From positions 64,001-128,000 of the forward strand of contig CAWEXO010000011.1 of NCBI GenBank assembly GCA_963813025.1: 64,000 bases of DNA. Reading direction: 5' to 3'. Shown here one piece after another: positions 2,354 to 20,632 of this stretch (the first letter of the stretch is position 1; every line of letters starts with the position of its first letter). The notes under the pieces were generated by a model that worked only from the letters and a program-made list of their open reading frames with translations, searched no databases and was not told the DNA's origin. The position numbers were made by a program, and so were the translations under genes. This DNA is from an uncultured Verrucomicrobiae bacterium. GTDB lineage: Bacteria > Verrucomicrobiota > Verrucomicrobiia > Chthoniobacterales > JAFAMB01.

Positions 2354-3017
2354 GGTTAACCGCTCTCTTACCGGTTGCAAACTGCCCATTCGACAGGGGC
2401 CATCACAGCTTCGCCTATAGCTTCGGCGAAGCTGTGTTGCGCGTGAAACCAAGCTGGGGACGAGACAACGTAAGAAATTAACAGTAGATCGCGACGTCAC
2501 AGCCCGGCGTAGTCGTAACCGCATTGCTTCTGCCGCCCCGGAGGGGCTGGGGAAAAATAGGCCAACGGGACCCCGGCAAACCAGGTAAGACCGAGCGCCG
2601 ACGTAAGTCGGATTCCCCCGCTTTTGTGACCCGAAAGCGGCAGCTAAATCCACCGTACGCGCCGTCCCGCCGAAATCGACTGAGCTGAAGTCCACGGCGA
2701 TCCCGCCCGTCGAGCTGATAATCGTGAACTGCATTCCGGTCAGCACACTCGCGTAAGCTAGGCTGGCTGACGCCCAGAAGGACTCTAACGCTTGTCAGAA
2801 TACGTCAGTGCCCCTCCACACACACAACCCATGAAAAAGCGTCATAGAGTGATTGGCGGAGCAGTCCGGCGCGACTGCCCCAGGAGACGATGAGACCGTC
2901 GGTGCTATGCAGGCTGCATTTAAAGCTTCCAATTCGTTACTGCAATTGATAGGATTCTTAACGGTTTTTTCTGCACGCATTCCGTGTAACGCAAAGGACG
3001 TACTAACCCTAAGGATC

Positions 3018-6000
3018 ATGATGAACACGCAAGTTCCCCTTCTGCGCATGTCCTCTACCGTTCTGGCCATGACCGTCTTAGCCACGGCCTTCTCGACGAC
3101 GAAAGCGCTCCCCCCGCTAATCGCGCCTCCCAATCTCGGACCTCACATCGATCAATCCTTCAGCTCGACGGATACTTCGACCGTTACCGCGAATTCCAAC
3201 GGAATAATCACGCTGGAGGGTGGAACGGTCACGCTTGATGCCATTAGCGGAGGCCAGATTGCTGCTTTGCTGGCAACGGGCGCTAACGCGCAGATCACCG
3301 CGACCGGCGTCACCATCGTAAACGATAATCTCCAGGGCACTTCCTTTACTTTTGGCGTCAATGCTACCAGCACACCTACCGGTGCCGCGGCCGTCAATTT
3401 GTTCGGGGGAAGTATCGACGCGACGGCGATCGGCAATGGCAGGGCCGTCGGTATCAATGCGGGCGTCGGTGGGACTGTTCGTGCCTCCAACCTCACGCTC
3501 GATTCAACCGGACCAAATGCCCACGCTATTGTATCGGCCGGTGGCACAATTGCTCTGGTAGACGGCGCGATTACCACGAACGGCTCGTTTGCGCTAGGCC
3601 TCCAGGCTAACGGCAACGCAGGACCCGCCACGATCACTGTCGACGGCACTACCATTAGAACACTCGGACCGACGAGCTCTGGCGCTCGGGCGGAAGGTAC
3701 GAATGCTGCAACGATTAGCCTGACAAATGCTACAATCGATACAGAGGGCGATAACGCGACCGGGCTGATTGCAATCGGTACTGGCAAAACGATCACGACT
3801 ACCAATACGAACATCGAAACTGTTGGTTCCTCAGCTTCTGGAGCTGCCGATTTTAATGGAGCCCACATCAATGAGACAGGCGGAACGATGACGACCTCTG
3901 GCAGCAATTCTATCGGTATCTCGTCCAACGGTCTGGGGAGCACCCTAACGGCCGTAGGCTTAACGGTGACAACGACTGGGACGGATAGCAGCGGCGCCTT
4001 AGCGCACGAAGGTGCACTGCTTACCCTGCAAAATAGCATAGTAACGACCACTGGAGACAACGCTGTAGGACTGAAGGTGATTCCTGCCCCAACGCAAGGC
4101 TCGACGTTGATGGCGACGAACAGCACGGTAAGCACTAATGGATTAAACGGGGAAGGAATCCTGGTAAGCGGCCGCGTGCCGCTGACCGTCACGGACGTAG
4201 TCAGTCTGAACAGCACCAACGTGACCACGCAGCAGGGGGATGGAATTGATTGGGACGGCCAGTCCAATACGAATGTCAGCCTGACAAACGGGACTACGGT
4301 GGTTCCCGGGAACGGAGTGTTATTGCGTGCGCTTGCCGGGACCGGAGGCGGCACGCCGCGAGTCTTGAATCTGACAGCGGATGGGACCGTGGCCCTGGAG
4401 GGGGATGTGTTGGTGGGGCCCGACAGCGTGGTGAACGTGAACCTCCTTAGTAATTCGGTGTTAACCGGGGCGATGCAGAACGCAAATAATGTCGCAATCG
4501 AGACGGGTAGCCGATGGGATATAACGGGCAGCTCAACAATCGGATCGTTGACCTTCAACGGCGGGACACTGCAATTCAACAACGCCGTCAACCTGGGAAT
4601 TACGCGCCTCATCACGCTGAATGCCTCAGGCGGAACAATCAACACGAATGGGAATGACGCGACACTCTCACAGGCAATCGTGGGGGTCGGCGGGCTGACC
4701 AAAACTGGCGCCGGCACGCTGACGCTCTCCGGAACGAATACCTATAGCGGCGGCACGAGCTTCAATGGCGGAATTCTTGCAGTAAACAGCGACTCCAATC
4801 TGGGAACCGGGCCGCTCAGTTTTAACGGCGGGACGCTCGAAGCACTCGGAGATATTACTTCAACCAAAGCGGTCATGCTCAATGCCGGGGACGGCACGTT
4901 TTTGGCCGATGCCGGCACGACCTCGAGGCTCAGCGGAGCGATCAGCGGTGTCGGCGGGTTCACCAAGGATGGCGCCGGCGAATTGATTCTGACCGGTGTG
5001 AACAGCTATAGCGGCAGTACGGTCGTGAAGGGCGGCACGCTGAACATCCAAGATGGCGGTAAGGACTCCGATAGCACCGGCGTCGTTGGCACCCTTGGCA
5101 CCGCTACGGAGGCCACTGGGACGGTGAACGTCATCGGTCCAGATTCGACCTGGACCAACTCTGGCCGCCTCCTTGTTGGTGCTGGTAATGGTTTCCATGG
5201 TTTCCTGAACATTCAGAACGGCGGCACGGTGTCAGATAATGCCGGATCTGTCGGCGCTACTCCCGGCTCAACTGGAACAGTGACGGTGGATGGCGCGGGC
5301 TCGATGTGGACAAGCGCTGGCGGGCTGTTTGTCGGCGATTTCGGCACCGGCACCTTGAACATTCACAATGGCGGCCACGTCACGAATTCCCGCGGGGAGA
5401 TCGGCGTTTTCGCCGGCTCGGCTGGTACAGTGGCGGTGGACGGGACGGACTCGACCTGGACAAACACCGGCAATCTCTATATTGGCGGCATCGTAGCCGG
5501 GCCGCGTGGAACCGGTCTTCTGGAGATCACCAACGGTGGTACGGTGAGCGCCGCAGCAACCACGATCTGGAACACCGGGACACTGGCAGTCGGCGCCAGT
5601 TTTAGGTTGATCACCTCGCTAACCGTCAACGGCGGCACAATCCGCACCCTGGCCGATACCACTTTTCCGAACAACGCGACGCTCGTTGGGGGTGGCGTTA
5701 TTCTCGATTCGAACGGTTTTGATTCGGCGTTTTCGGGCGCGTTTACAGGCTCTGGCGGTCTCACCAAGATAAGCCCCGGCCTGGTGATCTTGACCGGGGA
5801 CAACACCTTCTCCGGCGGCACCACAATCCTCGGCGGAACGCTAGAGCTTGGTAACGACGGAACGACCGGAAGCATCAGCGGGAATGTCACCAATAACGGA
5901 ACCCTGGAGTTTGACCGGCGAGATCCTGTGACCTTTAGCGGCGTGATCAGCGGCAGCGGTGATTTGGTGAAGATAGGCGCCGGCACATTGACTCTGACTG

Positions 6001-7637
6001 CCAACAACACCTATAGCGGCGGGACTACCATCCAAGACGGTACTCTGGTTGCAGGGACACCAAACGCCGCTCAAGAAGTATCCTTCGCGCTAGGTGCAGG
6101 AGACGTCTTTTTGCAGGGAGGAACCCTGCGCACGTCAAGTTTGGAGACCGGCAAGCCACTGACAATCAATGTCGGCGGCAATTATACACAAGGTCCCGGC
6201 GGGACGCTGGCGCTCGGAGTCGCTGGCATCAATGGGGAGGATTATGATCACGTGCAGGTTGGAGGTAATGCGAGTTTGAACGGGACGCTGGCCGTGAGTT
6301 CTCTAAATAATTTCCGTCCTTCCACCGGAAACGGCTTTGAAGTACTTCATACCAACGGCGTGCGGAGCGGCCAGTTCTCCCAGGTCAACGATTCTTTGAA
6401 TAACAATTCCAACCTCCAACGGATCGATGTCTACGCGCCAAATGGAGTAGCTTTGGTCTACGTGGCAGCCGCGCCGACACCACCGACGCCTAGTCCAACT
6501 CCAAGGCCACCCATTATAGATGTCATCCCCGAGCCGCTTCCGCCCGTAAATCCCGAGGAACCGTTGCCGATTCCGCCTTTGCTTGCGATTCTGGACCCGA
6601 CTGCCGAACAGTTAACGTCTCTCTTTGAAATCAGCTTTTCGGGAGCCAATTCCCAAAGATTCAATCTGGAAGACCGTCTCGCGGAGATCCAAAGAGGTTC
6701 GACGGGATTTGAGTCCACGATTCCACCAGCGGCTTCGCCTTCCGGTAAGGAGACCATTTTTCAAAAAGATGGGAAGGGCGTCGTCTCTCAACCACCGGTC
6801 TTTCAGCCCACACCGGAAAACCGCTGGGGCGTGTGGGTCAACGGCTGGGGTGATTTCGTCTCAGTCGATAGCGATAACCGCGCAAAGGGCTATGACTTCA
6901 CCACGGGAGGGGCGACCGTCGGCATTGATTACAGGTTCACCGACCACCTGGCGATCGGGCTTTTTGGTAGCTACGCTCATACCTGGACCCATCTTCAACC
7001 CGCTGGAGACATTGACGTCAACACCGGACGCGGCGGTCTGTATGCTACCTACTTCGATCGCGGGTTTTATGTCAATGGCTCGGCGTCTGGCGGCTACAAC
7101 AGCTATGACACCAGCCGGCAAGGTTTGCTGGCGCTGGCCACCGGGAGCACCGAAGGCTACGAATTCAGCACCTTCCTTGAAAGTGGCTACGACTTTCATT
7201 TCGGAAATTTAGCGGTTGGCCCGCTCGCCTCGGTGCAATACACCAACGTGCATGTTAACGGTTTCAGCGAACAGGGTTCGTTATTGCCTTTGCGAATCCA
7301 TTCTGATTCGGAAGAGTCCTGGCGAACAGACCTTGGCCTGCAGGCTTCTTACACCTGGCATTGTGGAAGCATGTTGGTGGTCCCATCCGTACGAGCTGCC
7401 TGGGAACACGAATTCAAATACTCGGCTCTGCCGATAACCGTCAGTTCCGCGGCTTTTCCGGGAGCCACGGCAACGTTTTTCGGCCCGAGCCAAGGTCATG
7501 ATAGCGCTATTATCAATGCAGGTCTCGGGGTTCAATGGACACCGAGAATCTCAACCTATGTCGGCTATCAGGGACAACTAGGCCGGAGCAATTACGAGGC
7601 GAACGGTGTTACGGGTAATATTAGTTTTAGCTTCTAA
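3018..7637 (+). CDS. Autotransporter (type Va) with beta-helical passenger, PATR repeats, Pro-rich linker and beta-barrel
   Basis: Repeated GGLTKxGxGxLxLxGxNTYSGGT motifs; GTVTVDGxxSxWT repeats; PTPPTPSPTPRPP linker; ends ISFSF. ORF is open from 2853; ATG 3018 precedes a signal-like stretch. Confidence 0.92.
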   Translation: MMNTQVPLLRMSSTVLAMTVLATAFSTTKALPPLIAPPNLGPHIDQSFSSTDTSTVTANSNGIITLEGGTVTLDAISGGQIAALLATGANAQITATGVTIVNDNLQGTSFTFGVNATSTPTGAAAVNLFGGSIDATAIGNGRAVGINAGVGGTVRASNLTLDSTGPNAHAIVSAGGTIALVDGAITTNGSFALGLQANGNAGPATITVDGTTIRTLGPTSSGARAEGTNAATISLTNATIDTEGDNATGLIAIGTGKTITTTNTNIETVGSSASGAADFNGAHINETGGTMTTSGSNSIGISSNGLGSTLTAVGLTVTTTGTDSSGALAHEGALLTLQNSIVTTTGDNAVGLKVIPAPTQGSTLMATNSTVSTNGLNGEGILVSGRVPLTVTDVVSLNSTNVTTQQGDGIDWDGQSNTNVSLTNGTTVVPGNGVLLRALAGTGGGTPRVLNLTADGTVALEGDVLVGPDSVVNVNLLSNSVLTGAMQNANNVAIETGSRWDITGSSTIGSLTFNGGTLQFNNAVNLGITRLITLNASGGTINTNGNDATLSQAIVGVGGLTKTGAGTLTLSGTNTYSGGTSFNGGILAVNSDSNLGTGPLSFNGGTLEALGDITSTKAVMLNAGDGTFLADAGTTSRLSGAISGVGGFTKDGAGELILTGVNSYSGSTVVKGGTLNIQDGGKDSDSTGVVGTLGTATEATGTVNVIGPDSTWTNSGRLLVGAGNGFHGFLNIQNGGTVSDNAGSVGATPGSTGTVTVDGAGSMWTSAGGLFVGDFGTGTLNIHNGGHVTNSRGEIGVFAGSAGTVAVDGTDSTWTNTGNLYIGGIVAGPRGTGLLEITNGGTVSAAATTIWNTGTLAVGASFRLITSLTVNGGTIRTLADTTFPNNATLVGGGVILDSNGFDSAFSGAFTGSGGLTKISPGLVILTGDNTFSGGTTILGGTLELGNDGTTGSISGNVTNNGTLEFDRRDPVTFSGVISGSGDLVKIGAGTLTLTANNTYSGGTTIQDGTLVAGTPNAAQEVSFALGAGDVFLQGGTLRTSSLETGKPLTINVGGNYTQGPGGTLALGVAGINGEDYDHVQVGGNASLNGTLAVSSLNNFRPSTGNGFEVLHTNGVRSGQFSQVNDSLNNNSNLQRIDVYAPNGVALVYVAAAPTPPTPSPTPRPPIIDVIPEPLPPVNPEEPLPIPPLLAILDPTAEQLTSLFEISFSGANSQRFNLEDRLAEIQRGSTGFESTIPPAASPSGKETIFQKDGKGVVSQPPVFQPTPENRWGVWVNGWGDFVSVDSDNRAKGYDFTTGGATVGIDYRFTDHLAIGLFGSYAHTWTHLQPAGDIDVNTGRGGLYATYFDRGFYVNGSASGGYNSYDTSRQGLLALATGSTEGYEFSTFLESGYDFHFGNLAVGPLASVQYTNVHVNGFSEQGSLLPLRIHSDSEESWRTDLGLQASYTWHCGSMLVVPSVRAAWEHEFKYSALPITVSSAAFPGATATFFGPSQGHDSAIINAGLGVQWTPRISTYVGYQGQLGRSNYEANGVTGNISFSF

Positions 7638-7790: not shown

Positions 7791-8147
7791 TCCAGGGCTT
7801 GTCGGACTTTGGAAATCTGCGGCAGCCACCCAAGCGATTGGTCGCCCGAGCGGTTAGAGATCGTCTCAGAATGCCGCACTGTCTTGTGGCTGTAGGGCGA
7901 AAATTTAGAGAATGTCTCGCAACATCCCGAAATCGGTAGGGCGAGAATTCATCTGAGCCTTCGGCGAAGACTCGTTCGAGCCGGGCGCTGCGGCAGGTCA
8001 CACTGAAGACGGCTCAAACAAGTTCTCGCTAAGGCTCGAATAAATTTTCGCCCTACCGGCGCAGGACCAAAGACGCTTTGGGACATGTCTCGAACCTTAG
8101 CTCGATTGCGCGAGCTACAGATTGGCCAAAGTCCGACAGACCCTGGA
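7791..8147. repeat. Composite palindromic repeat (REPIN/MITE-like) with outer inverted arms
   Basis: TCCAGGGCTTGTCGGACTTTGG (7791-7812) and CCAAAGTCCGACAGACCCTGGA (8126-8147); related arms at 18599-18618 and 20613-20632. Confidence 0.75.
7934..8058. repeat. GTAG-type REP doublet; empty IS110 target
   Basis: CGGTAGGGCGAGAATT...GAGCCG and CGGCTC...AATTTTCGCCCTACCG long imperfect inverted repeat; relatives at 16362, 18686 and in both IS flanks. Confidence 0.85.
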
Positions 8148-9275
8148 AGACGTTCTATTGGTCTTCAAGGGAGATTTTGCGCAAATTGGTTGCAATTAAT
8201 TGGTTGGAATTGAAGGACCCAAGAACCGTGTTTGATTTGGTTGCGTTGGTGGAACTCGGGATCATCGGGGGTGCGCTCTAGCCACATTTTGTAGATGATG
8301 TTGAGCCAACGCTGTCCCAGAGAGCGGATGGCGGTGGCATGGGAGTGGTCTTTGGCGCGGTGGGCTTGGTAGTAGGTCCGGGGCCCAGGGACAGCGCCTC
8401 AGACTATGTTGGCTAAACAGATGGATGGCGTGGCGCAGGAACTTGTCACAAGCCCAGCGCTGATGGCATTGGCGATGTTTGCCAGAGATTTTGGTGACCG
8501 GCGCCGTGCCGGCCAAGCACTGGAGACTTTGCGCTCCGCCCTCGAAGCGTTGGCGATCATCGCCGATCTGGGCTAACAAGCGGGGAGCCAGCTTGGGGCC
8601 CGCGCCCGGTAAAGAGCCAAAAAGCTCGTGATCGGGATGGGAGCGAAAAGTTCTTCGATCCGTTGGCGGTATTCGGCCAGCCGATCTTCTAAGGCAAAAA
8701 GCATTTTGAGCAAGCTCAGCGCCAGCAGGCTTTTAGCCTTGGTCGCCGGCTTGCTGCCACAGAACTGGGGTGGCATGGGCAAAGAGTTCCATCCGGCGGG
8801 GGCCGCTTTCGGTACGCCAGCGCCGATGGCTGTGCAGGAATTTTTGCCACTGCCGCGGGCCGGCCTGGGCCAGCAGTTGGGGCGTGGGGAAACGCTGCAA
8901 AAACATCCAGGCTGCAAGGGCACTCCAATCCTCAAAGGCTTCCAGAGCGCTCGGATAGTACTCGGCCAAGGCATGCCGGAGTTGATTGACAAAGGCGGTG
9001 CGCTGTTCAATCAAACTGACCTCATCGCGACACAATAAGCGCAGCTCTTTAATCAGGGGATCCTCCGGCCAAAGCGCCTTCCAGTGCTGACCCTCCATCC
9101 GCAGGGCGTCGGCAAAACTCCAGGCATCGAGCCGGTCGTCTTTAACCCCGCTGGGCGCCTTGCGTTGGCGGTAAGCTTGTGCGCTTTTAGGGTTGAGCGG
9201 ATAAACCTTCATCCCGGCTTCCAATAACTGCTCGACGGCCGCGCCTTGGCTGGTCTCGATCGCAAAAGGGATCGA
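8146..9275 (-). pseudogene. IS110-family transposase remnant, distinct from the intact pair; 5'-truncated and frameshifted
   Basis: AIETSQG, VYPLNP, KDDRLDA and LPGAGPKLAPRLL pieces in different frames; first catalytic Asp (GIDW) and upstream non-coding end not seen. Confidence 0.85.
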
Positions 9276-9499
9276 ACCGGGTGCATCGCCTCCCGGGATA
9301 CGGACGAGGCCGTCCGCGCTACGCCGGTGCGCTCGCGTGAACCCTTTTCAGCAGCCGGATATGTTCGAGAACGAGGACGATTTGGTTGCGGCTACGCCGC
9401 GCTGTACTACTGTCCGTAAAAATGTTGTTTTCCTGCGAGGATTTGCGAGGAGCTGAACAGTTTGAAGGTTGACCGGCAAGATGCCGGTGTCAGGGTGGA

Positions 9500-10329: not shown

Positions 10330-10516
10330 GGACCGGCAGGAGCCGGTCCCTACCGGTGCGCAGCTATCATGGTGTGGTAGGGATGAGCTCCTGCTCGTCC
10401 CAGTGACAATTGTCCGGAAGGACAATCCCCGTCCCCGCAGGGACAATGGATTAATAGCCGGCAATTTATTGCTGGCAGTAGGACGAGCAGGAGCTCGTCC
10501 AGAGCTCGTCCCTACC
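10330..10516. repeat. Cluster of a second GTAG-type REP (GGTAGGGAYGAGCTCCTGCTCGTCC)
   Basis: Copies at 10330-10354 (reverse), 10376-10400 (forward) and 10481-10516 (reverse, partly duplicated). Confidence 0.8.
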
Positions 10517-12165: not shown

Positions 12166-12310
12166 GAACAGCCTGGAGAATGAATGTTCATTACTTTTAT
12201 TGCAAATGTTTTATACATTGTATGTACGCGTTTTAACGTGACGTGGAGCAACATTCGGCAGACCTAGGGCCGGTAGGGCAGTATCTGAGCAGGTCTGGCA
12301 AGGGAAAAAG

Positions 12311-13585
12311 TTAAAGTTTTTCACCGATTGGTGAGTGGCGTTTTTTGAGGACTTGGAGGTAGCGCTCTTCGTCATAAGGGGTGCGGTCCTGCCAGAGCCG
12401 GAAGATGACGCGGATCCATTTAAAGGCCAAGGCGCGCACGGCAGTGTGGTGGGACTTACCGCGGGCCATTTGCTCTTGATAATAGAGCTTGGCCCATTGG
12501 GAATAAGGAATGGAATGAGCCGCGAATTCGTGGAAGCTCTGGCACAGGAATTTGGAGCGAAAGCGCCGCCGCTGGACGCTTTTGGTTTGCCCACTGCGCA
12601 CTTGGACCGGAGCGATTCCGCTTTTTTTCTGTACCTCCAGGGCTTCGGCAAAAGCCTGCCGATTGGAGCCAAAAGCCACCAACAAGCGCGGGGCTAATTG
12701 CGGGCCGGCTCCGGGCAGACTTTCAAAAATGTGCCGATCGGGATGTTTGGCAAACAGAGTGTGGATGGCTTTGTCAAAAGCCTTGATGGAATCTCGCAGC
12801 GGCAACAATTGACTGACCAAACACTTGCAACTCAGCACGGAGGGCTCCAGCAGAGAACGATCCTCGGTGACGGTTTGGGCCCGAGCGATCTTTTCCAGCC
12901 GCTCCTCAATCAAGCTTTGGCTCCGGCTGTGGTGTTGATAGAAAAAGGAGCGCAGGGTCTGGGACTTGGCTTTTTTTAAACTCTGCAGGGTCGGCCAGCG
13001 TTTCAAAAAATGTAGTGCCAGGGTCGTGTCCAGATCGTCGAGGACCTCCAGGGCCAGCGGATAGTAGACTTTGAGTAAGCTGGTGAGTTGGTTTTCGCAC
13101 ACCACGGAGGCCTCGACGGCTTTGCGTCGGTGCTGACCGAGCAAATCCAGTTCCCGCACTACCGGCTCCGGGGGTTGATAAAGCCGGAGCCGATCCCGAT
13201 GGTGATCAACGAGCTCTTCGATCAATTGGCTGTCGAGGGGGTCATCCTTGGCGCCACTGGTAAAGAAGACCTTGCGGTATTCGCTTAAACTCAAAGGATT
13301 GAGCGGATAGAGGTCGATCCAGTCTCCCTGGGTGCGAAGCATTTCAAAGAGTGCTCCCCGATTTTGTTCAAAACCAATGGCCACCCGCCCCTGCGGACCA
13401 GCCAAGCTTTTGAGCTCTTCGAGCCAGGTCCGAACCGAAACGGGATCGGCGCCCAGCTGGAATGTCCGGCATCCTCCCTCCGGACCAGAGCGTTGACAGA
13501 CAGCGTGTTCTTTATCAGCCCAATCGATTCCCACGCTGACCATATAATGGGGATCTGGGACCGGAAACGGATTTGATCGGTTCAT
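12311..13585 (-). CDS. IS110 DEDD recombinase/transposase
   Basis: VGIDW, IGFE, KDDPLD RuvC-like residues; C-terminal GIAPVQVRSG serine motif; AGGAG RBS. Confidence 0.95.
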   Translation of the reverse strand: MNRSNPFPVPDPHYMVSVGIDWADKEHAVCQRSGPEGGCRTFQLGADPVSVRTWLEELKSLAGPQGRVAIGFEQNRGALFEMLRTQGDWIDLYPLNPLSLSEYRKVFFTSGAKDDPLDSQLIEELVDHHRDRLRLYQPPEPVVRELDLLGQHRRKAVEASVVCENQLTSLLKVYYPLALEVLDDLDTTLALHFLKRWPTLQSLKKAKSQTLRSFFYQHHSRSQSLIEERLEKIARAQTVTEDRSLLEPSVLSCKCLVSQLLPLRDSIKAFDKAIHTLFAKHPDRHIFESLPGAGPQLAPRLLVAFGSNRQAFAEALEVQKKSGIAPVQVRSGQTKSVQRRRFRSKFLCQSFHEFAAHSIPYSQWAKLYYQEQMARGKSHHTAVRALAFKWIRVIFRLWQDRTPYDEERYLQVLKKRHSPIGEKL

Positions 13586-13618
13586 GCTTGCTCCTTTTTT
13601 CTGGTTTTACCCAGCGCG

Positions 13619-13840
13619 AAAAAAGCCGCTTGGCTTTGGCCGTCCGAAATCCGTATAGTTAAGTCGTCGAAGTGTGAAGTGCTCGACCTCAACTAGAGTA
13701 TTCGTTGTGACGAATCAAAGCGCGACCGGCTGGCTCGAAACTCTGCCCTAAAGATCTCGCGGACCCGAAAATCCTATTCGTAGCCAGCCGGCGCGTCCTT
13801 CTTCGCGTGGGCAGCGCGGGATTTTGCCCGACTGCCCTTG
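13619..13840 (-). ncRNA. Putative bridge RNA of IS110 copy 1 (ends approximate)
   Basis: 5' hairpin 13808-13837; loop 13726-13791 with AUUUUCG and UAGGGC matching the target; loop 13640-13713 with AUACU and CUAUAC matching the donor junction; terminator-like hairpin plus U-tract 13619-13637. Confidence 0.8.
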
Positions 13841-14408
13841 GCAATGAAAACCCTTTCTTTTTTCCAAAGCTTTCTTTTCTCCGGGCGGAGTTATTCACAA
13901 GCTGGAGCTCCGACCGGTAGGGCCTCCGACCACAGCTTGCTGAATAACTCCGGACTTGCTATACGGACTTGCTATACGAAAATTCATTCGAGCCTTGAAC
14001 TTGTTTGAGCCGGGGGTGCAAGTGGCAGCCTGGGTCGTTCCGTCACCGGATTCGCGCCCACGATAGCCCGGAAGCAAGGTACCAATATATGTCGCGAACC
14101 CGGTAAGGGCCGGCTTGAGCGACGCTGTGGCTCATTGGCCATTCCAAGGCGAGGTGACCCCATTTGCTGATTGGTGGTGACGACAAATTCACGGAGATAA
14201 TCTCGAAACCGCCGATCGCCGGATGCGAGCCTTAGCGAAAGCTTATTTGAGGCGTCCCAATTGTGGCGATTCCAATTTCAGATCCCCGAATTCGGTGCCG
14301 TACGACAAAGTTTCCAAGATTGGTCGACATCAATTCATCGGGCGAACGCTTCGCCAGATGATATAAAGTCCAAAACGCCGGGCAGCCTCGAACAGTGGAG
14401 TATCCGGC

Positions 14409-14975
14409 ATGCAAGCGTACGATCTACTTCATCCAGACCAGGCCACACCGTTCGAGGGGAGAGATGTTTTCGACCGGCGAGGCAAAAAGATCGGAGTTGT
14501 GGCGGCTCACTGGTTCAATCCGAGTACCGACCAAGTTGAGTTCCTCGGTGTTCGGCCAGGTCTACTGTTTGGCGGTTGCCATTTGGTTCCGGCACGGAGC
14601 GCATCAATCGATCCAGCCGACGACCGCGTCCACCTCGGCGTGGACGAAGAGATTGTCCTGAAGGCGCCGACTGCCATCCCGCACCAAGGTTTGGCTGAGG
14701 TTGAAAAAGAGGAAGTAAATGCCTATTACCACGAGTTTGTGCCCGTCGAGCGAGTGACTGATATCGCGGAAGTCCGTCCCGAAGAGGCGCTGAAGCCGCC
14801 ACCAGTGACAACCCCACCTCCGGGTAAGCTGGAAAACCAGTTTATTCCCAGCGAGCATACCGCCGTTGAAGAAGGGCTGCCGGCAGATGAGCTGACGGAG
14901 GAACGCCTCGAAAGCGGCCCGCAACCCGTGAAAGAACCGAACCCCAATGATCAACAGATTACCAAAAATTCTTAG
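14409..14975 (+). CDS. PRC-barrel domain protein
   Basis: GRDVFDRRGKKIGVV...G.LFGG.HLVP pattern with an acidic Pro-rich tail. Confidence 0.75.
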   Translation: MQAYDLLHPDQATPFEGRDVFDRRGKKIGVVAAHWFNPSTDQVEFLGVRPGLLFGGCHLVPARSASIDPADDRVHLGVDEEIVLKAPTAIPHQGLAEVEKEEVNAYYHEFVPVERVTDIAEVRPEEALKPPPVTTPPPGKLENQFIPSEHTAVEEGLPADELTEERLESGPQPVKEPNPNDQQITKNS

Positions 14976-15312
14976 CGTCCTGCTCCTCCTGTTCGGCACG
15001 GGCCTGGCGGTGGCTGCGTTCGAGTTGTCCATCCCAACCGTGATCGCGCAAACCACTCGGCATAGCCATCGAGCCACTCGGATCACCCAAAAACAAGCTG
15101 AACAAATCGCTCTCAGCAAAGTTCCCGGAGGCAAGATTCGAAGTTCCGAGCTGACCGGCGCCGGCCGGCAGCGCTTTTGGGCGGTGTTCGTGCTGAAACC
15201 GAACTCGAAAAACGCGAAGGAAATTCACGTTGACGCGCGATCCGGCCAAGTGCTGAAGTCGCAAACCGAAAAGCCGGAGGACCAGGCAGAAGAACCCGCG
15301 AAGACTCGCTAA
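14947..15312 (+). CDS. Secreted PepSY domain protein
   Basis: Signal peptide; ITQKQAEQIAL...PGGKI...EIHVDARSGQVL. Confidence 0.8.
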   Translation: MINRLPKILSVLLLLFGTGLAVAAFELSIPTVIAQTTRHSHRATRITQKQAEQIALSKVPGGKIRSSELTGAGRQRFWAVFVLKPNSKNAKEIHVDARSGQVLKSQTEKPEDQAEEPAKTR

Positions 15313-15356
15313 ACGGATAGCCAATAGCCGGATAGCCGATAGCCCCGGATTTGCTG

Positions 15357-16367
15357 ATGAGGTTTGTGGATTATGGATCCGGTGGCGGGCCGGACGCGAT
15401 GGTCCTGGCCGAAATGCCTGTACCTAAGCCGCAAGCAGGGCAGGTGTTAATCGAGGTGGCGTTCGCGGGGGTCAACCGACCGGACACTTTTCAGCGTGCC
15501 GGAAGCTATCCGCCGCCACCAGGAGCGTCGCCGATCCTTGGTCTGGAGGTATCCGGGAAGGTCGTGGACAAAGGTTCCCAGGTGACCTCATGGGACTTCG
15601 GGGACCAAGTCTGCGCACTGGTCGCTGGCGGCGGCTATGCGGAGTTTTGCGTCGCCGACGCCAGGCACTGCCTTCCGGTTCCTGCGGGCCTGAACTTAGC
15701 GGAGGCAGCGGCGCTTCCGGAAAACCTGTTTACGGTTTGGACCAACCTGGTTGATCGGGGCCGCTTGGCGCTGGAAGAAACGGTGCTGATTCATGGCGGC
15801 TCAAGCGGCATCGGATACCAGGCAATTCAATTGTCCAAAAACCGCGGAGCCAAGGTCTTCGCTACCGTGGGCACCCCGGAAAAAGCCAGGTTCTGCCGCG
15901 ACCTCGGCGCCGATTTACTGATCAATTACCAATCCGAAGACTTTGTGCAGGAAACCATGCGCGCGACGGATAACGAGGGCGTCGATATCGTGCTCGACAT
16001 GGTTGGTGGAGATTACATCCGGCGAAATATCCAGATCCTGAAGCTGGAAGGTCGGCTGGTGCAAATCGCGTTTCTCAAGGGCAGCATGGTCGCCGGCCTG
16101 GATTTCCGGCCAATCATGACTCGGCGCTTGACGATAACCGGGTCGACCCTTCGGCCGTTACCGGCGGAACGAAAGGCGGCCATCGCGTCCAATCTGCGGC
16201 AGCACGTCTGGCCGCTCCTGGAGCAAGGCAAGATCCGGGTTTGGATCGATCACGAATTTCCTCTGACACAGGTACAGGAAGCCCATCGTCTGATGGAGAG
16301 TGGCCAACACATGGGGAAAATCGTGCTCAGGGTGGGATGGGGTCAGTGCCAGTGCCAGTGTCGGTAG
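15357..16367 (+). CDS. NAD(P)H-quinone oxidoreductase (PIG3 family)
   Basis: AGVNRPD..QRAG.YPPPPGASPILGLE; HGGSSGIG; HMGKIVL. Confidence 0.9.
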   Translation: MRFVDYGSGGGPDAMVLAEMPVPKPQAGQVLIEVAFAGVNRPDTFQRAGSYPPPPGASPILGLEVSGKVVDKGSQVTSWDFGDQVCALVAGGGYAEFCVADARHCLPVPAGLNLAEAAALPENLFTVWTNLVDRGRLALEETVLIHGGSSGIGYQAIQLSKNRGAKVFATVGTPEKARFCRDLGADLLINYQSEDFVQETMRATDNEGVDIVLDMVGGDYIRRNIQILKLEGRLVQIAFLKGSMVAGLDFRPIMTRRLTITGSTLRPLPAERKAAIASNLRQHVWPLLEQGKIRVWIDHEFPLTQVQEAHRLMESGQHMGKIVLRVGWGQCQCQCR

Positions 16368-16505
16368 GGCGAGAATTTATTCGAGCCTTCGGCGAAGACT
16401 CCTTCGAGCCTGGCGCAGGAGTTGCCACCCGCTCCAGGCGGCTCCGCCTTCGCCAAGGCTATGGCGGACACGTTAAACGGGTTTTCGCCTACCGGCGCAG
16501 GACCA
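16362..16505. repeat. GTAG-type REP doublet, same family as 7934-8058; empty
   Basis: CGGTAGGGCGAGAATTTATTCGAGCCTTCGGCGAAGACT...TTTTCGCCTACCGGCGCAGGACCA. Confidence 0.8.
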
Positions 16506-16882
16506 TGGCAGTGGCCCCTGATAATCGCTTGACAAGCCGATTTTTATGGTGCTTTGTAGGGGTTCTGCCAAATTTGTGGCGATTTGCGTCGATTTCTAGG
16601 AGAAATCTGCCAGTCTGGGGCGAACTAGCAGGGGGATGGGGATGGCAGAGTGCGTAACCCCCAGACCTGCTGCCGGCTAACAGTCCCGGGGTGCGGCAGC
16701 GGGAGTGCTGTTGCGGCGGCCGTGCACGGGGAAGGGTGGCGGAGGATATTTTAGAAAAATACGTTGAACGCTGCATTGAGCAACGGTGTCAAAGCACAGG
16801 TTGCTTAAGGTAGTTAACCTTTTTGGGTGGGAAACGACGGGATTTCCCAGAAAACAACTGGTCGGTCTACAACAATACACGT

Positions 16883-17737
16883 ATGGCAGGTGAAGATTCA
16901 GATACGGGCATCAAGATTTACCTTCGGGAAATCGGGCAGATTGCACTGCTGACTCCCCAAGAGGAGATTGAGCTGGCCGCACGAATCAAGAAGGGCGATC
17001 GCGAAGCGCGCGCTCTGATGATCAAGGCTAATCTCCGTTTGGTCGTTAAAATAGCCCACGACTACGCAAATTTGGGGTTGCCTCTGCTGGACCTTATCTC
17101 AGAGGGCAATATCGGCCTGATGAAGGCGGTCGAGCGGTTTGACCCGGCAAAAGGTGGTAAACTTAGCACCTACGCCGCCTGGTGGATTAAACAATCCATC
17201 AAACGAGCCTTGGCAAATCAAAGTAAAACGATTCGGCTCCCGGTGCATTTGGTCGATAAGATCTCGAAAATGCGGCGCGTGTCGTTGCAGATGAGCGAGG
17301 AACTCGGACGCGAACCGACCGATGAGGAGCTGGCCGAAGAAATCGGTATCTCCAGCGGAAAAGTTTCCCAGCTTAAGACGGTCTCGATCCGTCCAGCTTC
17401 CTTGGATGCACCGATCAGTGACGATGATTCGACTGAATTTGGTGAAATCGTCGGAGACGAAGAGGCCCAAACGCCTTTCGAACTCTTGCGAGACAAGAAT
17501 CTCCGCGACGAGGTCAGCGATTTGCTCGAAGTGCTCGACGACCGCGAACGGAAGATCATCTTCCAGCGGTTCGGGCTGGATGGCGGCAAGCCAAAGACCT
17601 TGGAGGAAGTAGGAAAAAAATTTGGCGTGACCCGGGAGAGAATCCGGCAGCTGCAAAATATTGCCTTGGCCAAATTGCGTCGGGCTCTTGGAAAAAAAGA
17701 GAGACCGATCGATGTTTTGCAAGAAGCAATGTCGTAA
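16883..17737 (+). CDS. RNA polymerase sigma-70 factor, RpoD/SigA family, lacking region 1.1
   Basis: YLREIG, NLRLVV, DLISEGNIGLMKAVERFDP, STYAAWWIKQ, TLEEVG...TRERIRQ. Confidence 0.93.
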   Translation: MAGEDSDTGIKIYLREIGQIALLTPQEEIELAARIKKGDREARALMIKANLRLVVKIAHDYANLGLPLLDLISEGNIGLMKAVERFDPAKGGKLSTYAAWWIKQSIKRALANQSKTIRLPVHLVDKISKMRRVSLQMSEELGREPTDEELAEEIGISSGKVSQLKTVSIRPASLDAPISDDDSTEFGEIVGDEEAQTPFELLRDKNLRDEVSDLLEVLDDRERKIIFQRFGLDGGKPKTLEEVGKKFGVTRERIRQLQNIALAKLRRALGKKERPIDVLQEAMS

Positions 17738-17767
17738 ACTGGTTGACTCCTTGTCGAGCGAGTTTCC

Positions 17768-17800
17768 AAAAGGGCCGTCCTGCTGGGCGGCCTTTTTCTT
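17768..17800 (+). terminator. Intrinsic terminator after the sigma factor
   Basis: GGCCGTCC-TGCT-GGGCGGCC hairpin followed by TTTTTCTT. Confidence 0.7.
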
Positions 17801-17841
17801 GAGGAAAGGCAACGCCGAGTTATTCTTCCCTCCACACTTCT

Positions 17842-18576
17842 ATGAGAACTGGTAATCCGATTTTGACCGATTCGACCTTCGAAGCCGGCGGGCGCGCAAC
17901 CGAAACGATGACTTTAAGCGGGGTGATCAACCGCTCGTTGATTTTGCTGTTGCTCGTAGTTTTGTCCTCCATCGCGACTTGGAACGTGGCTGGCGCGCAC
18001 CCTTCGCTGGCCTATACCGCGTCGATCTTCGGCGCACTCGGGGGCCTGGTCGTGGGCGTGATTACGTCATTCAAGAAATCCTGGGCTGCAGTGACCTCCC
18101 CAGTCTACGCGGTGTTGCAAGGTTTCTTTATAGGCGCCATCTCCTGGTCGCTCGAGAGGCGGTTCCCTGGAATCGCGGTCCAATCGGTTTGCCTCACTTT
18201 TGCGGTGATGTTCGCTTTACTTGGTGCTTATCAGACCGGTTTGATTCGGCCGTCGCAAACCTTTCGTTCTATCATCGTTGGCGCGACGGGGGGAATTCTC
18301 GTGGTCTATTTGGTCAACATGGTTGCGGGTTTATTCTTTCACCGTCCCCTTTCTTTCATCACGGGAACGGGCCCGCTGGCTATCGGGTTTTCGGTCCTGG
18401 TGGTCGGCATTGCCGCGCTCAATCTCGTCCTCGATTTCGACTTTATTGCGACTGGCGTGGCGAATGGAGCGCCGAAAAGCCTCGAGTGGTTTGCCGCTTT
18501 CGGACTGACGGTTACGCTCGTTTGGCTCTACATCGAGATTTTGCGTTTGCTGGCCAAAATCCGCAGCAACGATTAG
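17842..18576 (+). CDS. Bax inhibitor-1/YccA family membrane protein
   Basis: Seven hydrophobic segments; NLVLDFD; TLVWLYIEILRLL. Confidence 0.88.
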   Translation: MRTGNPILTDSTFEAGGRATETMTLSGVINRSLILLLLVVLSSIATWNVAGAHPSLAYTASIFGALGGLVVGVITSFKKSWAAVTSPVYAVLQGFFIGAISWSLERRFPGIAVQSVCLTFAVMFALLGAYQTGLIRPSQTFRSIIVGATGGILVVYLVNMVAGLFFHRPLSFITGTGPLAIGFSVLVVGIAALNLVLDFDFIATGVANGAPKSLEWFAAFGLTVTLVWLYIEILRLLAKIRSND

Positions 18577-18598
18577 CGTGCATCGCTGATCGGGCCTA

Positions 18599-18845
18599 AG
18601 GGCTCTGTCGGACTCTGATCCTGTCCCGAAGGGGTCTGAGATGGTCTGTCGAGTCTTTTGGGGTGGAGTTATTCACTGCGCGAAGGGTAGGGCGATCCGC
18701 CTTGGCGGACGAGCGCCAGGCGCGAACTTGTTTGAGCCGTCCTGGGCGCGGCATATCCCAGGGCAGGGCTGGAACGAGTCTTCGCTGAAGGACTCAGATG
18801 AAGAGATTATGTCATAACGTGTCTCTGACCCTGTTGGGGTAGGGC
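18599..18845. repeat. Left part of a composite repeat interrupted by IS110 copy 2
   Basis: Outer arm AGGGCTCTGTCGGACTCTGA; degenerate REP 18686-18802; ends in the half-target GGTAGGGC. Confidence 0.7.
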
Positions 18846-18876
18846 AGTATCTGAGCAGGTCTGGCAAGGGAAAAAG

Positions 18877-20151
18877 TTAAAGTTTTTCACCGATTGGTGA
18901 GTGGCGTTTTTTGAGGACTTGGAGGTAGCGCTCTTCGTCATAAGGGGTGCGGTCCTGCCAGAGCCGGAAGATGACGCGGATCCATTTAAAGGCCAAGGCG
19001 CGCACGGCAGTGTGGTGGGACTTACCGCGGGCCATTTGCTCTTGATAATAGAGCTTGGCCCATTGGGAATAAGGAATGGAATGAGCCGCGAATTCGTGGA
19101 AGCTCTGGCACAGGAATTTGGAGCGAAAGCGCCGCCGCTGGACGCTTTTGGTTTGCCCACTGCGCACTTGGACCGGAGCGATTCCGCTTTTTTTCTGTAC
19201 CTCCAGGGCTTGGGCAAAAGCCTGCCGATTGGAGCCAAAAGCCACCAACAAGCGCGGGGCTAATTGCGGGCCGGCTCCGGGCAGACTTTCAAAAATGTGC
19301 CGATCGGGATGTTTGGCAAACAGAGTGTGGATGGCTTTGTCAAAAGCCTTGATGGAATCTCGCAGCGGCAACAATTGACTGACCAAACACTTGCAACTCA
19401 GCACGGAGGGCTCCAGCAGAGAACGATCCTCGGTGACGGTTTGGGCCCGAGCGATCTTTTCCAGCCGCTCCTCAATCAAGCTTTGGCTCCGGCTGTGGTG
19501 TTGATAGAAAAAGGAGCGCAGGGTCTGGGACTTGGCTTTTTTTAAACTCTGCAGGGTCGGCCAGCGTTTCAAAAAATGTAGTGCCAGGGTCGTGTCCAGA
19601 TCGTCGAGGACCTCCAGGGCCAGCGGATAGTAGACTTTGAGTAAGCTGGTGAGTTGGTTTTCGCACACCACGGAGGCCTCGACGGCTTTGCGTCGGTGCT
19701 GACCGAGCAAATCCAGTTCCCGCACTACCGGCTCCGGGGGTTGATAAAGCCGGAGCCGATCCCGATGGTGATCAACGAGCTCTTCGATCAATTGGCTGTC
19801 GAGGGGGTCATCCTTGGCGCCACTAGTAAAGAAGACCTTGCGGTATTCGCTTAAACTCAAAGGATTGAGCGGATAGAGGTCGATCCAGTCTCCCTGGGTG
19901 CGAAGCATTTCAAAGAGTGCTCCCCGATTTTGTTCAAAACCAATGGCCACCCGCCCCTGCGGACCAGCCAAGCTTTTGAGCTCTTCGAGCCAGGTCCGAA
20001 CCGAAACGGGATCGGCGCCCAGCTGGAATGTCCGGCATCCTCCCTCCGGACCAGAGCGTTGACAGACAGCGTGTTCTTTATCAGCCCAATCGATTCCCAC
20101 GCTGACCATATAATGGGGATCTGGGACCGGAAACGGATTTGATCGGTTCAT
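18877..20151 (-). CDS. IS110 DEDD recombinase/transposase
   Basis: 424 aa, one residue different from copy 1. Confidence 0.95.
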   Translation of the reverse strand: MNRSNPFPVPDPHYMVSVGIDWADKEHAVCQRSGPEGGCRTFQLGADPVSVRTWLEELKSLAGPQGRVAIGFEQNRGALFEMLRTQGDWIDLYPLNPLSLSEYRKVFFTSGAKDDPLDSQLIEELVDHHRDRLRLYQPPEPVVRELDLLGQHRRKAVEASVVCENQLTSLLKVYYPLALEVLDDLDTTLALHFLKRWPTLQSLKKAKSQTLRSFFYQHHSRSQSLIEERLEKIARAQTVTEDRSLLEPSVLSCKCLVSQLLPLRDSIKAFDKAIHTLFAKHPDRHIFESLPGAGPQLAPRLLVAFGSNRQAFAQALEVQKKSGIAPVQVRSGQTKSVQRRRFRSKFLCQSFHEFAAHSIPYSQWAKLYYQEQMARGKSHHTAVRALAFKWIRVIFRLWQDRTPYDEERYLQVLKKRHSPIGEKL

Positions 20152-20184
20152 GCTTGCTCCTTTTTTCTGGTTTTACCCAGCGCG

Positions 20185-20406
20185 AAAAAAGCCGCTTGGC
20201 TTTGGCCGTCCGAAATCCGTATAGTTAAGTCGTCGAAGTGTGAAGTGCTCGACCTCAACTAGAGTATTCGTTGTGACGAATCAAAGCGCGACCGGCTGGC
20301 TCGAAACTCTGCCCTAAAGATCTCGCGGACCCGAAAATCCTATTCGTAGCCAGCCGGCGCGTCCTTCTTCGCGTGGGCAGCGCGGGATTTTGCCCGACTG
20401 CCCTTG
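20185..20406 (-). ncRNA. Putative bridge RNA of IS110 copy 2 (ends approximate)
   Basis: Same sequence as 13619-13840. Confidence 0.8.
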
Positions 20407-20530
20407 GCAATGAAAACCCTTTCTTTTTTCCAAAGCTTTCTTTTCTCCGGGCGGAGTTATTCACAAGCTGGAGCTCCGACCGGTAGGGCCTCCGACCACA
20501 GCTTGCTGAATAACTCCGGACTTGCTATAC

Positions 20531-20632
20531 GAAAATTTAGCCGAGCTTCAGCGAGGACTCGTTTGAGCCGGACGCCGCGGTTGCCACCATCCAACCCGGC
20601 TCAAACAAGAAATCAAAGTCCGACACGTCCCT
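20531..20632. repeat. Right part of the REP/composite repeat interrupted by IS110 copy 2
   Basis: GAAAATTTAGCCGAGC..GTTTGAGCCGG / CCGGCTCAAAC and outer arm TCAAAGTCCGACACGTCCCT. Confidence 0.75.

What the first reader, a model, noticed from the sequence alone, without database searches (positions are those of the whole stretch)
12272..20545. Both IS110 copies sit at the same nucleotide of a host GTAG-type palindromic repeat
Seen: removing either copy restores GGTAGGGC|GAAAATT(CATTC/TAGCC)GAGC, the start of the repeat found empty at 7934-8058 and 16362-16505. Perfect empty sites exist at 7892-7905 and 8043-8057. Both occupied sites are the GAAAATT variant that matches the left guide exactly; the two GAGAATT variants (7935, 16363) are empty. 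Known: IS621 targets E. coli REP sequences. Inference: independent use of an abundant intergenic repeat as a safe harbour in this lineage; the copies differ by only two substitutions that I could see, so movement was recent.
Basis: partly seen in the sequence, partly recalled or inferred. Interest (0 to 1): 0.75.

Follow-up and report, generated by a model that had tools for sequence, protein, structure and literature searches.

The report
IS110 element guided into REP repeats
A jumping gene sits ten times in this bacterial genome, always at the same base of a common between-gene repeat, likely steered there by its own guide RNA; the habit is already known from E. coli, and the extras are a likely one-base crossover, a lean to one spelling of the repeat, and a 13-base doubled end in three copies.

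Summary
Observation confirmed and extended. The element is a 1,685-bp IS110 (10 full copies, 1 fragment). All 11 left and 10 right junctions fall at one base of a GTAG repeat with 176 empty arms; no junction and 4 of 176 arms lie in called genes. Three RAYT-like genes are flanked by this repeat, so it behaves as a REP. The leader folds as a bridge RNA whose guides match the site, and in 16 relatives the left guide is the best match to the flank in 13. Occupied sites are 11:0 for GAAAATT against 129:47 empty (p=0.037); a second IS110 here uses both spellings (7:6). Target and element ends share one base, not a CT core. REP targeting is known (IS621, ISPpu9, ISPpu10); the scan had already noted the one-base core and the RAYT link on other copies in this genome. 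Safe-harbour benefit and activity are untested. Verdict: new variant of a known kind.

The parts
12280..13977 (-). IS110 copy 1, with the 13-bp duplicated left end
18846..20530 (-). IS110 copy 2 (1,685 bp counting one copy of the shared base)
12311..13585 (-). Recombinase gene of copy 1, 424 aa; PF01548 + PF02371; NF033542 above cut-off
18877..20151 (-). Recombinase gene of copy 2; motif residues D21, E73, D115, D118, S331
13952..13977 (-). Two tandem copies of the element's terminal 13 bp (copy 1 only in this window)
20195..20372 (-). Predicted bridge RNA core (target-binding and donor-binding loops) of copy 2; same sequence in copy 1, 6566 bases lower
20332..20341 (-). Left target guide (copy 1: 13766-13775)
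20307..20316 (-). Right target guide plus handshake bases (copy 1: 13741-13750)
20257..20264 (-). Left donor guide, pairing with one bulge (copy 1: 13691-13698)
20216..20224 (-). Right donor guide plus handshake bases (copy 1: 13650-13658)
20452..20518 (-). Clade-conserved hairpin starting at base 13 of the element (copy 1: about 13886-13952)
18862..18867 (-). Predicted -35 box, 17 bases from the TATAGC -10 box once the ends are joined (copy 1: 12296-12301)
   Evidence: inference
12272..12279 (+). GTAG end of the repeat split off by copy 1
13978..14013 (+). Rest of the repeat interrupted by copy 1 (no complete far arm)
14014..14182 (+). 3' remnant of the RAYT-like gene, 80% identical to the intact copy on C14
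18838..18845 (+). GTAG end of the repeat split off by copy 2
20531..20609 (+). Rest of the repeat interrupted by copy 2 (no complete far arm)
7892..7905 (+). Empty repeat arm, GAAAATT spelling
7935..8057 (.). Empty full repeat doublet, 123 bases; GAGAATT arm at 7936, GAAAATT arm at 8043-8057; folds as one long hairpin (z -4.8)
16363..16502 (+). Empty repeat, GAGAATT spelling, far arm degenerate

Best explanation
This is an IS110 insertion sequence whose copies all sit at one base of a RAYT-linked GTAG repeat, likely because its left end encodes a bridge RNA whose target loop pairs with that site. Steps: (1) shown: fixed junctions, repeat abundance, intergenic position, RAYT-like genes flanked by the repeat. 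(2) Shown by sequence, function inferred: two-loop RNA with four guides that match target and element ends and change together with the flanks in relatives. (3) Inferred from IS621, CazIS110 and ISPpu10 work: the element is copied out as a circle, the joined ends form a promoter for the RNA, and the top strand is exchanged at the site. (4) Shown: target and element ends share only one base (G on the element strand); the base before it is C in the target and T in the element, and both right-hand guides match the state after exchange; inferred: this base acts as a third handshake position and only the top-strand sequence is fixed. (5) The lean to GAAAATT likely comes from a base 3 nt from the crossover, where the other spelling gives a U-G wobble. 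(6) The 13-bp doubled end likely gives two usable left junctions, so it can be kept or dropped at each move.
For: Junctions 11 of 11 and 10 of 10. 129+47 empty arms; 0 of 11 and 0 of 10 junctions and 4 of 176 arms in called genes, 77% coding (my own crude gene caller). RAYT-like genes at C14, C15, C11 flanked by the repeat. Two stem-loops with open guide loops, 13 of 38 pairs with two-sided changes in 10 sequences. Left guide versus flank: four guide types; own guide best in 13 of 16 relatives, tie in 1, not best in 2. Genome G023, whose elements carry the AGGTTTTC guide, has the repeat spelled GGTAGGGCGAAAACC (4 copies); G000 has none. Left junction CG in 16 of 16 and right junction TG in 18 of 19 relatives; other subclades share only A (L006) or only T (L045, L123), many share CT. 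Spelling bias p=0.037 against empty sites, p=0.008 to 0.016 against the second IS110. Duplication present in C13:92657 but absent in three identical copies, and present in one of the two window sisters. Papers: top-strand-only integration (10.1101/2025.10.25.684509), target-independent excision (10.64898/2026.08.31.748434), left guide strict near the crossover (10.64898/2026.03.19.712850).
Against: No RNA, circle or activity was observed; no circle junction is in the assembly (0 hits) and no RNA run was listed. L110 carries a guide that matches its flank at only about half the positions and L043 matches our guide better than its own. Relatives are not independent (14 distinct left flanks, four guide types). 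The spelling bias rests on 11 events, p=0.050 with full copies only. Two sites outside the repeat match the left guide better than the repeat does and are empty, too few to weigh. The crossover register is ambiguous by one base. RAYT score is below the NCBIfam cut-off (68.2 of 80 bits) and Pfam found nothing.
Confidence: 0.85

Rival explanations
1. The element targets the repeat as described, but the lean to GAAAATT is chance or a side effect (age, location or protection of GAGAATT arms), not guide discrimination.
For: Only 11 events; p=0.037, or 0.050 for full copies. U-G wobbles are tolerated in IS621 and ISPpu10 guides. GAGAATT arms flank two of the three RAYT genes.
Against: The second IS110 family reaches GAGAATT-type arms in 6 of 13 insertions, so they are accessible; single-arm hairpin energies of the two spellings are alike (-2.4 and -2.5 kcal/mol).
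Confidence: 0.3
2. The 13-bp doubled end is ordinary replication slippage: polymerase stalls at the hairpin that begins at base 13 and slips back on the short CG match at the junction; the recombinase plays no part in making it.
For: The duplicated unit ends exactly where a strong hairpin starts (z -5.2) and is bounded by a CG match. None of 16 relatives' left ends has it. The site matches neither target guide nor the left donor guide well.
Against: The new junction matches the right donor guide plus handshake over 9 of 9 bases, better than the normal junction; it begins exactly at the element's first base in 3 of 3 cases; its state differs between copies with no substitutions, which is fast for slippage alone. 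One-sided donor matches mark IS110 expansions (10.64898/2026.08.14.744561, passages), though there tandem units keep almost only left-donor matches.
Confidence: 0.45
3. The site is chosen by protein or by the hairpin shape of the repeat, or insertions are loose and only intergenic ones survive; the guide match is incidental.
For: A target stem-loop raises ISPpu10 efficiency (10.64898/2026.03.19.712850). All sites are intergenic.
Against: Selection cannot fix one base and one orientation in 11 of 11. Only 5 of 11 occupied arms have a strict far arm, and both window sites lack one. Guide and flank change together in relatives. Other GTAG repeats of this genome hold none of these copies.
Confidence: 0.07
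4. GGTAGGGC and GAAAATT belong to the element, and the 'empty repeats' are its footprints or non-autonomous derivatives.
For: The element's own leader hairpin holds a GGTAGGGC match (13916-13923).
Against: The repeat flanks RAYT-like genes, occurs in G001 and G007, where the protein search found no match, is interrupted 4 bases away by an unrelated IS110 (24% identity), and continues seamlessly into variable repeat bodies.
Confidence: 0.02

Closest known systems
IS621 of E. coli and its bridge RNA (PMC11208160 passages; PMC11208158 passages; PMC13626964 part 1 of 8 and passages)
   Same: DEDD plus serine recombinase, long upstream leader with two guide loops, insertion at one position of a GTAG REP (144 of 173 experimental sites in REPs), handshake bases matching the exchanged state, promoter across joined ends.
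   Different: Only distantly similar protein (E 8e-6 over the C-terminal half), 424 aa; no shared CT core; cuts 4 bases further into the repeat than the CT-AC position, which the second IS110 family of this genome uses.
ISPpu9 and ISPpu10 of Pseudomonas putida (10.1101/2025.01.17.633520 abstract and outline; 10.64898/2026.03.19.712850 part 1 of 8 and passages)
   Same: Multi-copy IS110 elements in REPs; left guide strict near the crossover; alternative circles from alternative ends (ISPpu9).
   Different: ISPpu10 has a CT core; ISPpu9's alternative ends delimit modules, not a 13-bp doubled terminus.
CazIS110-1 (10.1101/2025.10.25.684509, parts 1-3 of 5) and half-match recombination (10.64898/2026.08.31.748434, parts 1-3 of 6)
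   Same: Top-strand-only transfer and donor-only excision would explain the fixed CG-left, TG-right junctions and loss of the doubled end.
   Different: Those are experiments on other elements; here only the genomic record is seen.
GTAG REPs, REP doublets and REPtrons with RAYT (PMC3733652, passages)
   Same: Terminal GTAG, short imperfect stem, inverted doublets, intergenic, high copy, flanking a HUH tyrosine transposase gene.
   Different: Doublets here are about 125 bases with nested arms; I could not compare with the numbered GTAG families because their consensus figure is not held.

Membership tests
IS110 family, IS110 group | N-terminal DEDD domain PF01548 and C-terminal PF02371 with catalytic serine | tested here: met
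   NF033542 148.4 bits, cut-off 140
IS110 family, IS110 group | Long non-coding end upstream of the gene, short end downstream | tested here: met
   379 bases upstream, 31 downstream
IS110 family, IS110 group | No terminal inverted repeats, no target duplication beyond the core | tested here: met
   ends unrelated and one shared base only; no end pair among the 25 longest inverted repeats
IS110 family, IS110 group | Bridge RNA: two stem-loops with guides matching target and donor arms | tested here: met
   predicted fold with two-sided changes; guide-flank matches
IS110 family, IS110 group | RNA expressed and bound; circular intermediate; junction promoter active | not testable with these tools
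   no RNA run listed; no junction in the assembly; promoter boxes seen in sequence only
IS621-type CT-core bridge recombinases | CT dinucleotide core shared by target and donor | tested here: not met
   CG at left, TG at right junctions; not filed in this subgroup, though it works like it
GTAG REP family | Terminal unpaired GTAG followed by a short imperfect stem-loop | tested here: inconclusive
   such folds are predicted but weak (z -1.4 to -1.8)
GTAG REP family | High copy, intergenic, often in inverted doublets | tested here: met
   176 arms, 172 outside called genes, 129 with an inverted partner within 40-230 bases, 40 full doublets
GTAG REP family | RAYT gene flanked by the same repeat | tested here: met
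   three loci flanked on both sides, HUH and tyrosine motifs visible; NF047646 E 6.8e-19 but below the curated cut-off, hence 'RAYT-like'
GTAG REP family | Cleavage or spread of the repeat by the RAYT | not testable with these tools
   needs biochemistry

The most novel reading that the evidence does not exclude
This clade of bridge recombinases needs only one shared base: the neighbouring base is encoded as an extra handshake that drives the reaction forward, the clade has stayed on GTAGGGCGA repeats by retuning only its left guide as the repeat's spelling changed, and the 13-bp doubled end is a natural record of donor-only recombination in which circles form at either left junction without any target match.
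Probability: 0.35. Interest if true: 0.65.

Novelty: new variant of a known kind. Interest (0 to 1): 0.4.

Why it matters
REP targeting by IS110 elements is textbook, so the headline claim is ordinary. The useful part is the natural experiment: 11 insertions, two repeat spellings and a second IS110 as control give an in vivo readout of guide strictness; relatives show the guide following the repeat; and an enzyme that works without a shared CT core would loosen a design limit of bridge editors. The doubled end offers a simple test of the current dispute on whether excision needs target pairing.

Tried and rejected
Orthologous empty sites: G001 (same genus, about 85% identity) has neither the element nor this repeat in either spacer. 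Circle junction or excision footprint in the assembly: 0 hits each. Sequencing runs: no RNA holder listed; one DNA run has contigs of a 9-letter-different element ending in the same flanks and showing no doubled end, but contigs drop rare variants and the run may not be independent, so not used as evidence; two other runs laid nothing. PF01797 search found three RAYT-type genes with other repeats or none and missed the three linked to this repeat; 0 of 25 relative loci had more than one arm; they were found by tblastn with a G007 protein. My first reading of the left donor guide was replaced after comparing relatives. Idea that the two IS110 families partition the two spellings: dropped, because the second family is indifferent (6 C: 7 T, p=0.12 against empty sites; guide base and site base do not agree copy by copy). 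Idea that the leader hairpin is a captured REP: dropped, the hairpin is conserved in relatives with other loop sequences. Preference for G one base further out: p=0.11. Promoter scan of the linear copy found nothing at the ends. No tree, no structure prediction. Not-in-print searches: IS110 + bridge RNA + 'single nucleotide core' 0 papers; IS110 + REP + Verrucomicrobi + bridge RNA 0 papers; and passages show only engineered AT, GT, TT cores. Two supplements of PMC11208160 searched for 'core' gave no table of natural cores (one file cut); bioRxiv supplements and ISfinder could not be seen and may list one-base cores.
Full report
Observation. The window lies at G000:C11:64001-128000. Two copies of one element lie on the minus strand at 12280-13977 and 18846-20530, each between GGTAGGGC and GAAAATT on the plus strand. 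The 424-aa gene has PF01548 and PF02371, passes the NCBIfam IS110 cut-off and aligns weakly with IS621 and ISCro4.

Genome-wide census. There are 10 full copies and one 219-bp left-end fragment. All 11 left junctions have the same flank; all 10 right junctions continue into CCCTACC, nine through G and one (C4) through A. Empty arms number 129 (GAAAATT) and 47 (GAGAATT) against 0.024 expected for the first. With a simple gene caller of my own (3,861 genes, 77% coding) 0 of 11 left and 0 of 10 right junctions and 4 of 176 empty arms fall in genes. Of nine copies compared (C16 left out for a one-base deletion), four are identical, the window pair differs at 2 positions, and the two groups differ at 23-29, mostly in one block at positions 628-1078. 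Movement is therefore recent.

The repeat. 129 of 176 arms have an inverted partner within 40-230 bases; 40 full doublets were extracted and the 12 folded form long hairpins; the window doublet folds at z -4.8, single arms only weakly. Three near-identical genes (96-100%) with HUH and tyrosine motifs are flanked on both sides by the repeat; one scores E 6.8e-19 to the RAYT model, below its cut-off, with no Pfam match. A 3' remnant of this gene lies right behind copy 1, at 14014-14182. The repeat occurs in 6 of 41 genomes searched, including G001 and G007, where the transposase search found no match. In G001 the two orthologous spacers have neither element nor repeat. It behaves as a GTAG REP as defined in PMC3733652 (passages), which reports GTAG repeats in a verrucomicrobium; the host's phylum is not given, and two of the three closest titled relatives of the element are labelled Verrucomicrobiota.

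The guides. The 379-base leader holds a 5' hairpin and two stem-loops with open internal loops; in 10 sequences 13 of 38 pairs show two-sided changes. The first loop carries a left guide identical to the 7 bases left of the crossover and a right guide complementary to the GTAGGGC side; the second loop matches the element's own ends. Among 23 loci at 58-72% identity, 16 have a left end (14 distinct flanks). Their own left guide is the best of four guide types in 13, ties in 1 (L108) and is not best in 2 (L043; L110, which matches poorly and may be a recombinant). The right guide stays fixed. G023, whose elements carry the AGGTTTTC guide, has the repeat spelled GGTAGGGCGAAAACC 4 times; G000 has it 0 times. 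These loci are kin, so this is a pattern, not a statistic.

Spelling bias. Occupied 11:0 against empty 129:47 gives one-sided p=0.037, or 0.050 with full copies only. A second, unrelated IS110 family (336 aa, 24% identity, CT core) inserts 4 bases away in the same repeat, with 13 left and 12 right junctions; it uses both spellings (4:5 on strict arms, p=0.008 against ours; 7:6 on all, p=0.016). For our element the variable base is 3 nt from the crossover, for the other it is distal, which fits the rule that the left guide is strict only near the crossover (10.64898/2026.03.19.712850, passages). The other spelling would give a wobble, not a full mismatch, so the effect may be partial.

The crossover. 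On the element strand the left junction reads CG and the right TG, so target and joined ends share only G. The same holds in 16 of 16 left and 18 of 19 right ends of relatives (L112 differs); L006 shares only A, L045 and L123 only T, and many more distant relatives share CT. The right target guide matches the donor's T and the right donor guide the target's C, the state after exchange. In IS621 the CT core is shared and T is nearly invariant, while positions 6-7 are handshake bases (PMC11208158, passages); engineered AT, GT and TT cores work less well (PMC11208160). CazIS110 integrates through the top strand over 1,300-fold more than the bottom (10.1101/2025.10.25.684509), which would explain why every junction keeps the top-strand base; ISEc21 inserts with no duplication (PMC11187229, passages). 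So a one-base core is a modest extension. Earlier scan reports on other copies in this genome reached the same reading; I had it before looking.

The doubled end. It stands in 3 of 11 left ends: window copy 1, C13:92657 and the C1 fragment, and in 0 of 16 relatives. It is present in one of two sister copies and in one of four identical copies, in both sequence groups, so it is gained or lost faster than point mutation. Its inner junction matches the right donor guide plus handshake at 9 of 9 bases, and the unit ends where the leader hairpin begins. Origin by slippage or by a one-sided recombination cannot be told apart. The simplest history is one origin and repeated loss when circles form at the inner junction, which needs no target match, as shown in vitro for IS621 (10.64898/2026.08.31.748434). 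One-sided donor matches also mark IS110 expansions, but with left-donor matches at tandem units and units of 50 bp or more (10.64898/2026.08.14.744561, passages).

Verdict. REP targeting by IS110 is known (IS621: 144 of 173 sites; ISPpu9 and ISPpu10). The element belongs to the IS110 group but fails the CT-core test of the IS621 type. Activity, RNA expression and any benefit to the host are inferred, not shown. My searches found no paper on a single-nucleotide core or on this host group, but ISfinder and several supplements were not seen. Interest 0.4.

Noticed in passing
window 14014-14182: 3' third of the RAYT-like gene, 80% identical to the intact copy, fused directly to the repeat that copy 1 interrupts.
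   Followed up: partly
G000 C14:454609-455073, C15:124761-125225, C11:604996-605458 (L181-L183): Three 96-100% identical RAYT-like genes flanked by the repeat; the C11 copy has an altered 3' frame; the second IS110 family sits in repeats beside two of them.
   Followed up: partly
G000, 13 left junctions, e.g. C14:356942 and C8:82857: Second IS110 family (336 aa, CT core) inserts into the same repeat 4 bases from our element; two versions of its left guide differ at one base.
   Followed up: partly
G000 C4:2773-4457: Right junction has A where the other nine have the shared G, while the left junction keeps G; two empty arms with A exist. One case; may show the cut side or a later mutation.
   Followed up: partly
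G000 C1:207767-207998: Left-end fragment with the doubled end, broken off inside the target loop; right part missing.
   Followed up: partly
G000 C16:83670-85353: One-base deletion in the left donor arm, which would also shorten the predicted promoter spacer.
   Followed up: no
element positions 628-1078, window copies and C13:131626: Block of about 22 mostly silent substitutions sets three copies apart from seven; looks like recombination with a diverged relative.
   Followed up: no
window 13887-13951 and 20453-20517: Leader hairpin conserved across the clade; in this element its loop holds a GGTAGGGC match to the target's right arm, absent in relatives.
   Followed up: partly
window about 8150-9280: Broken IS110 of another family (33% identity to ours), with one 83% relative on C13.
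   Followed up: no
window about 10377-10516; G000 C13:21012-21395 and C5:185071-185694: Other GTAG repeat families, two of them beside their own RAYT-like genes; the genome has 40 PF01548 matches.
   Followed up: no
L110:250-520: Relative whose left flank and first bases are of one subtype and whose guide is of another; recombinant, move in trans or assembly chimera.
   Followed up: partly
window 2853-7637: 1,594-aa ORF with glycine-rich repeats that looks like an autotransporter (label from my own knowledge; not scanned).
   Followed up: no
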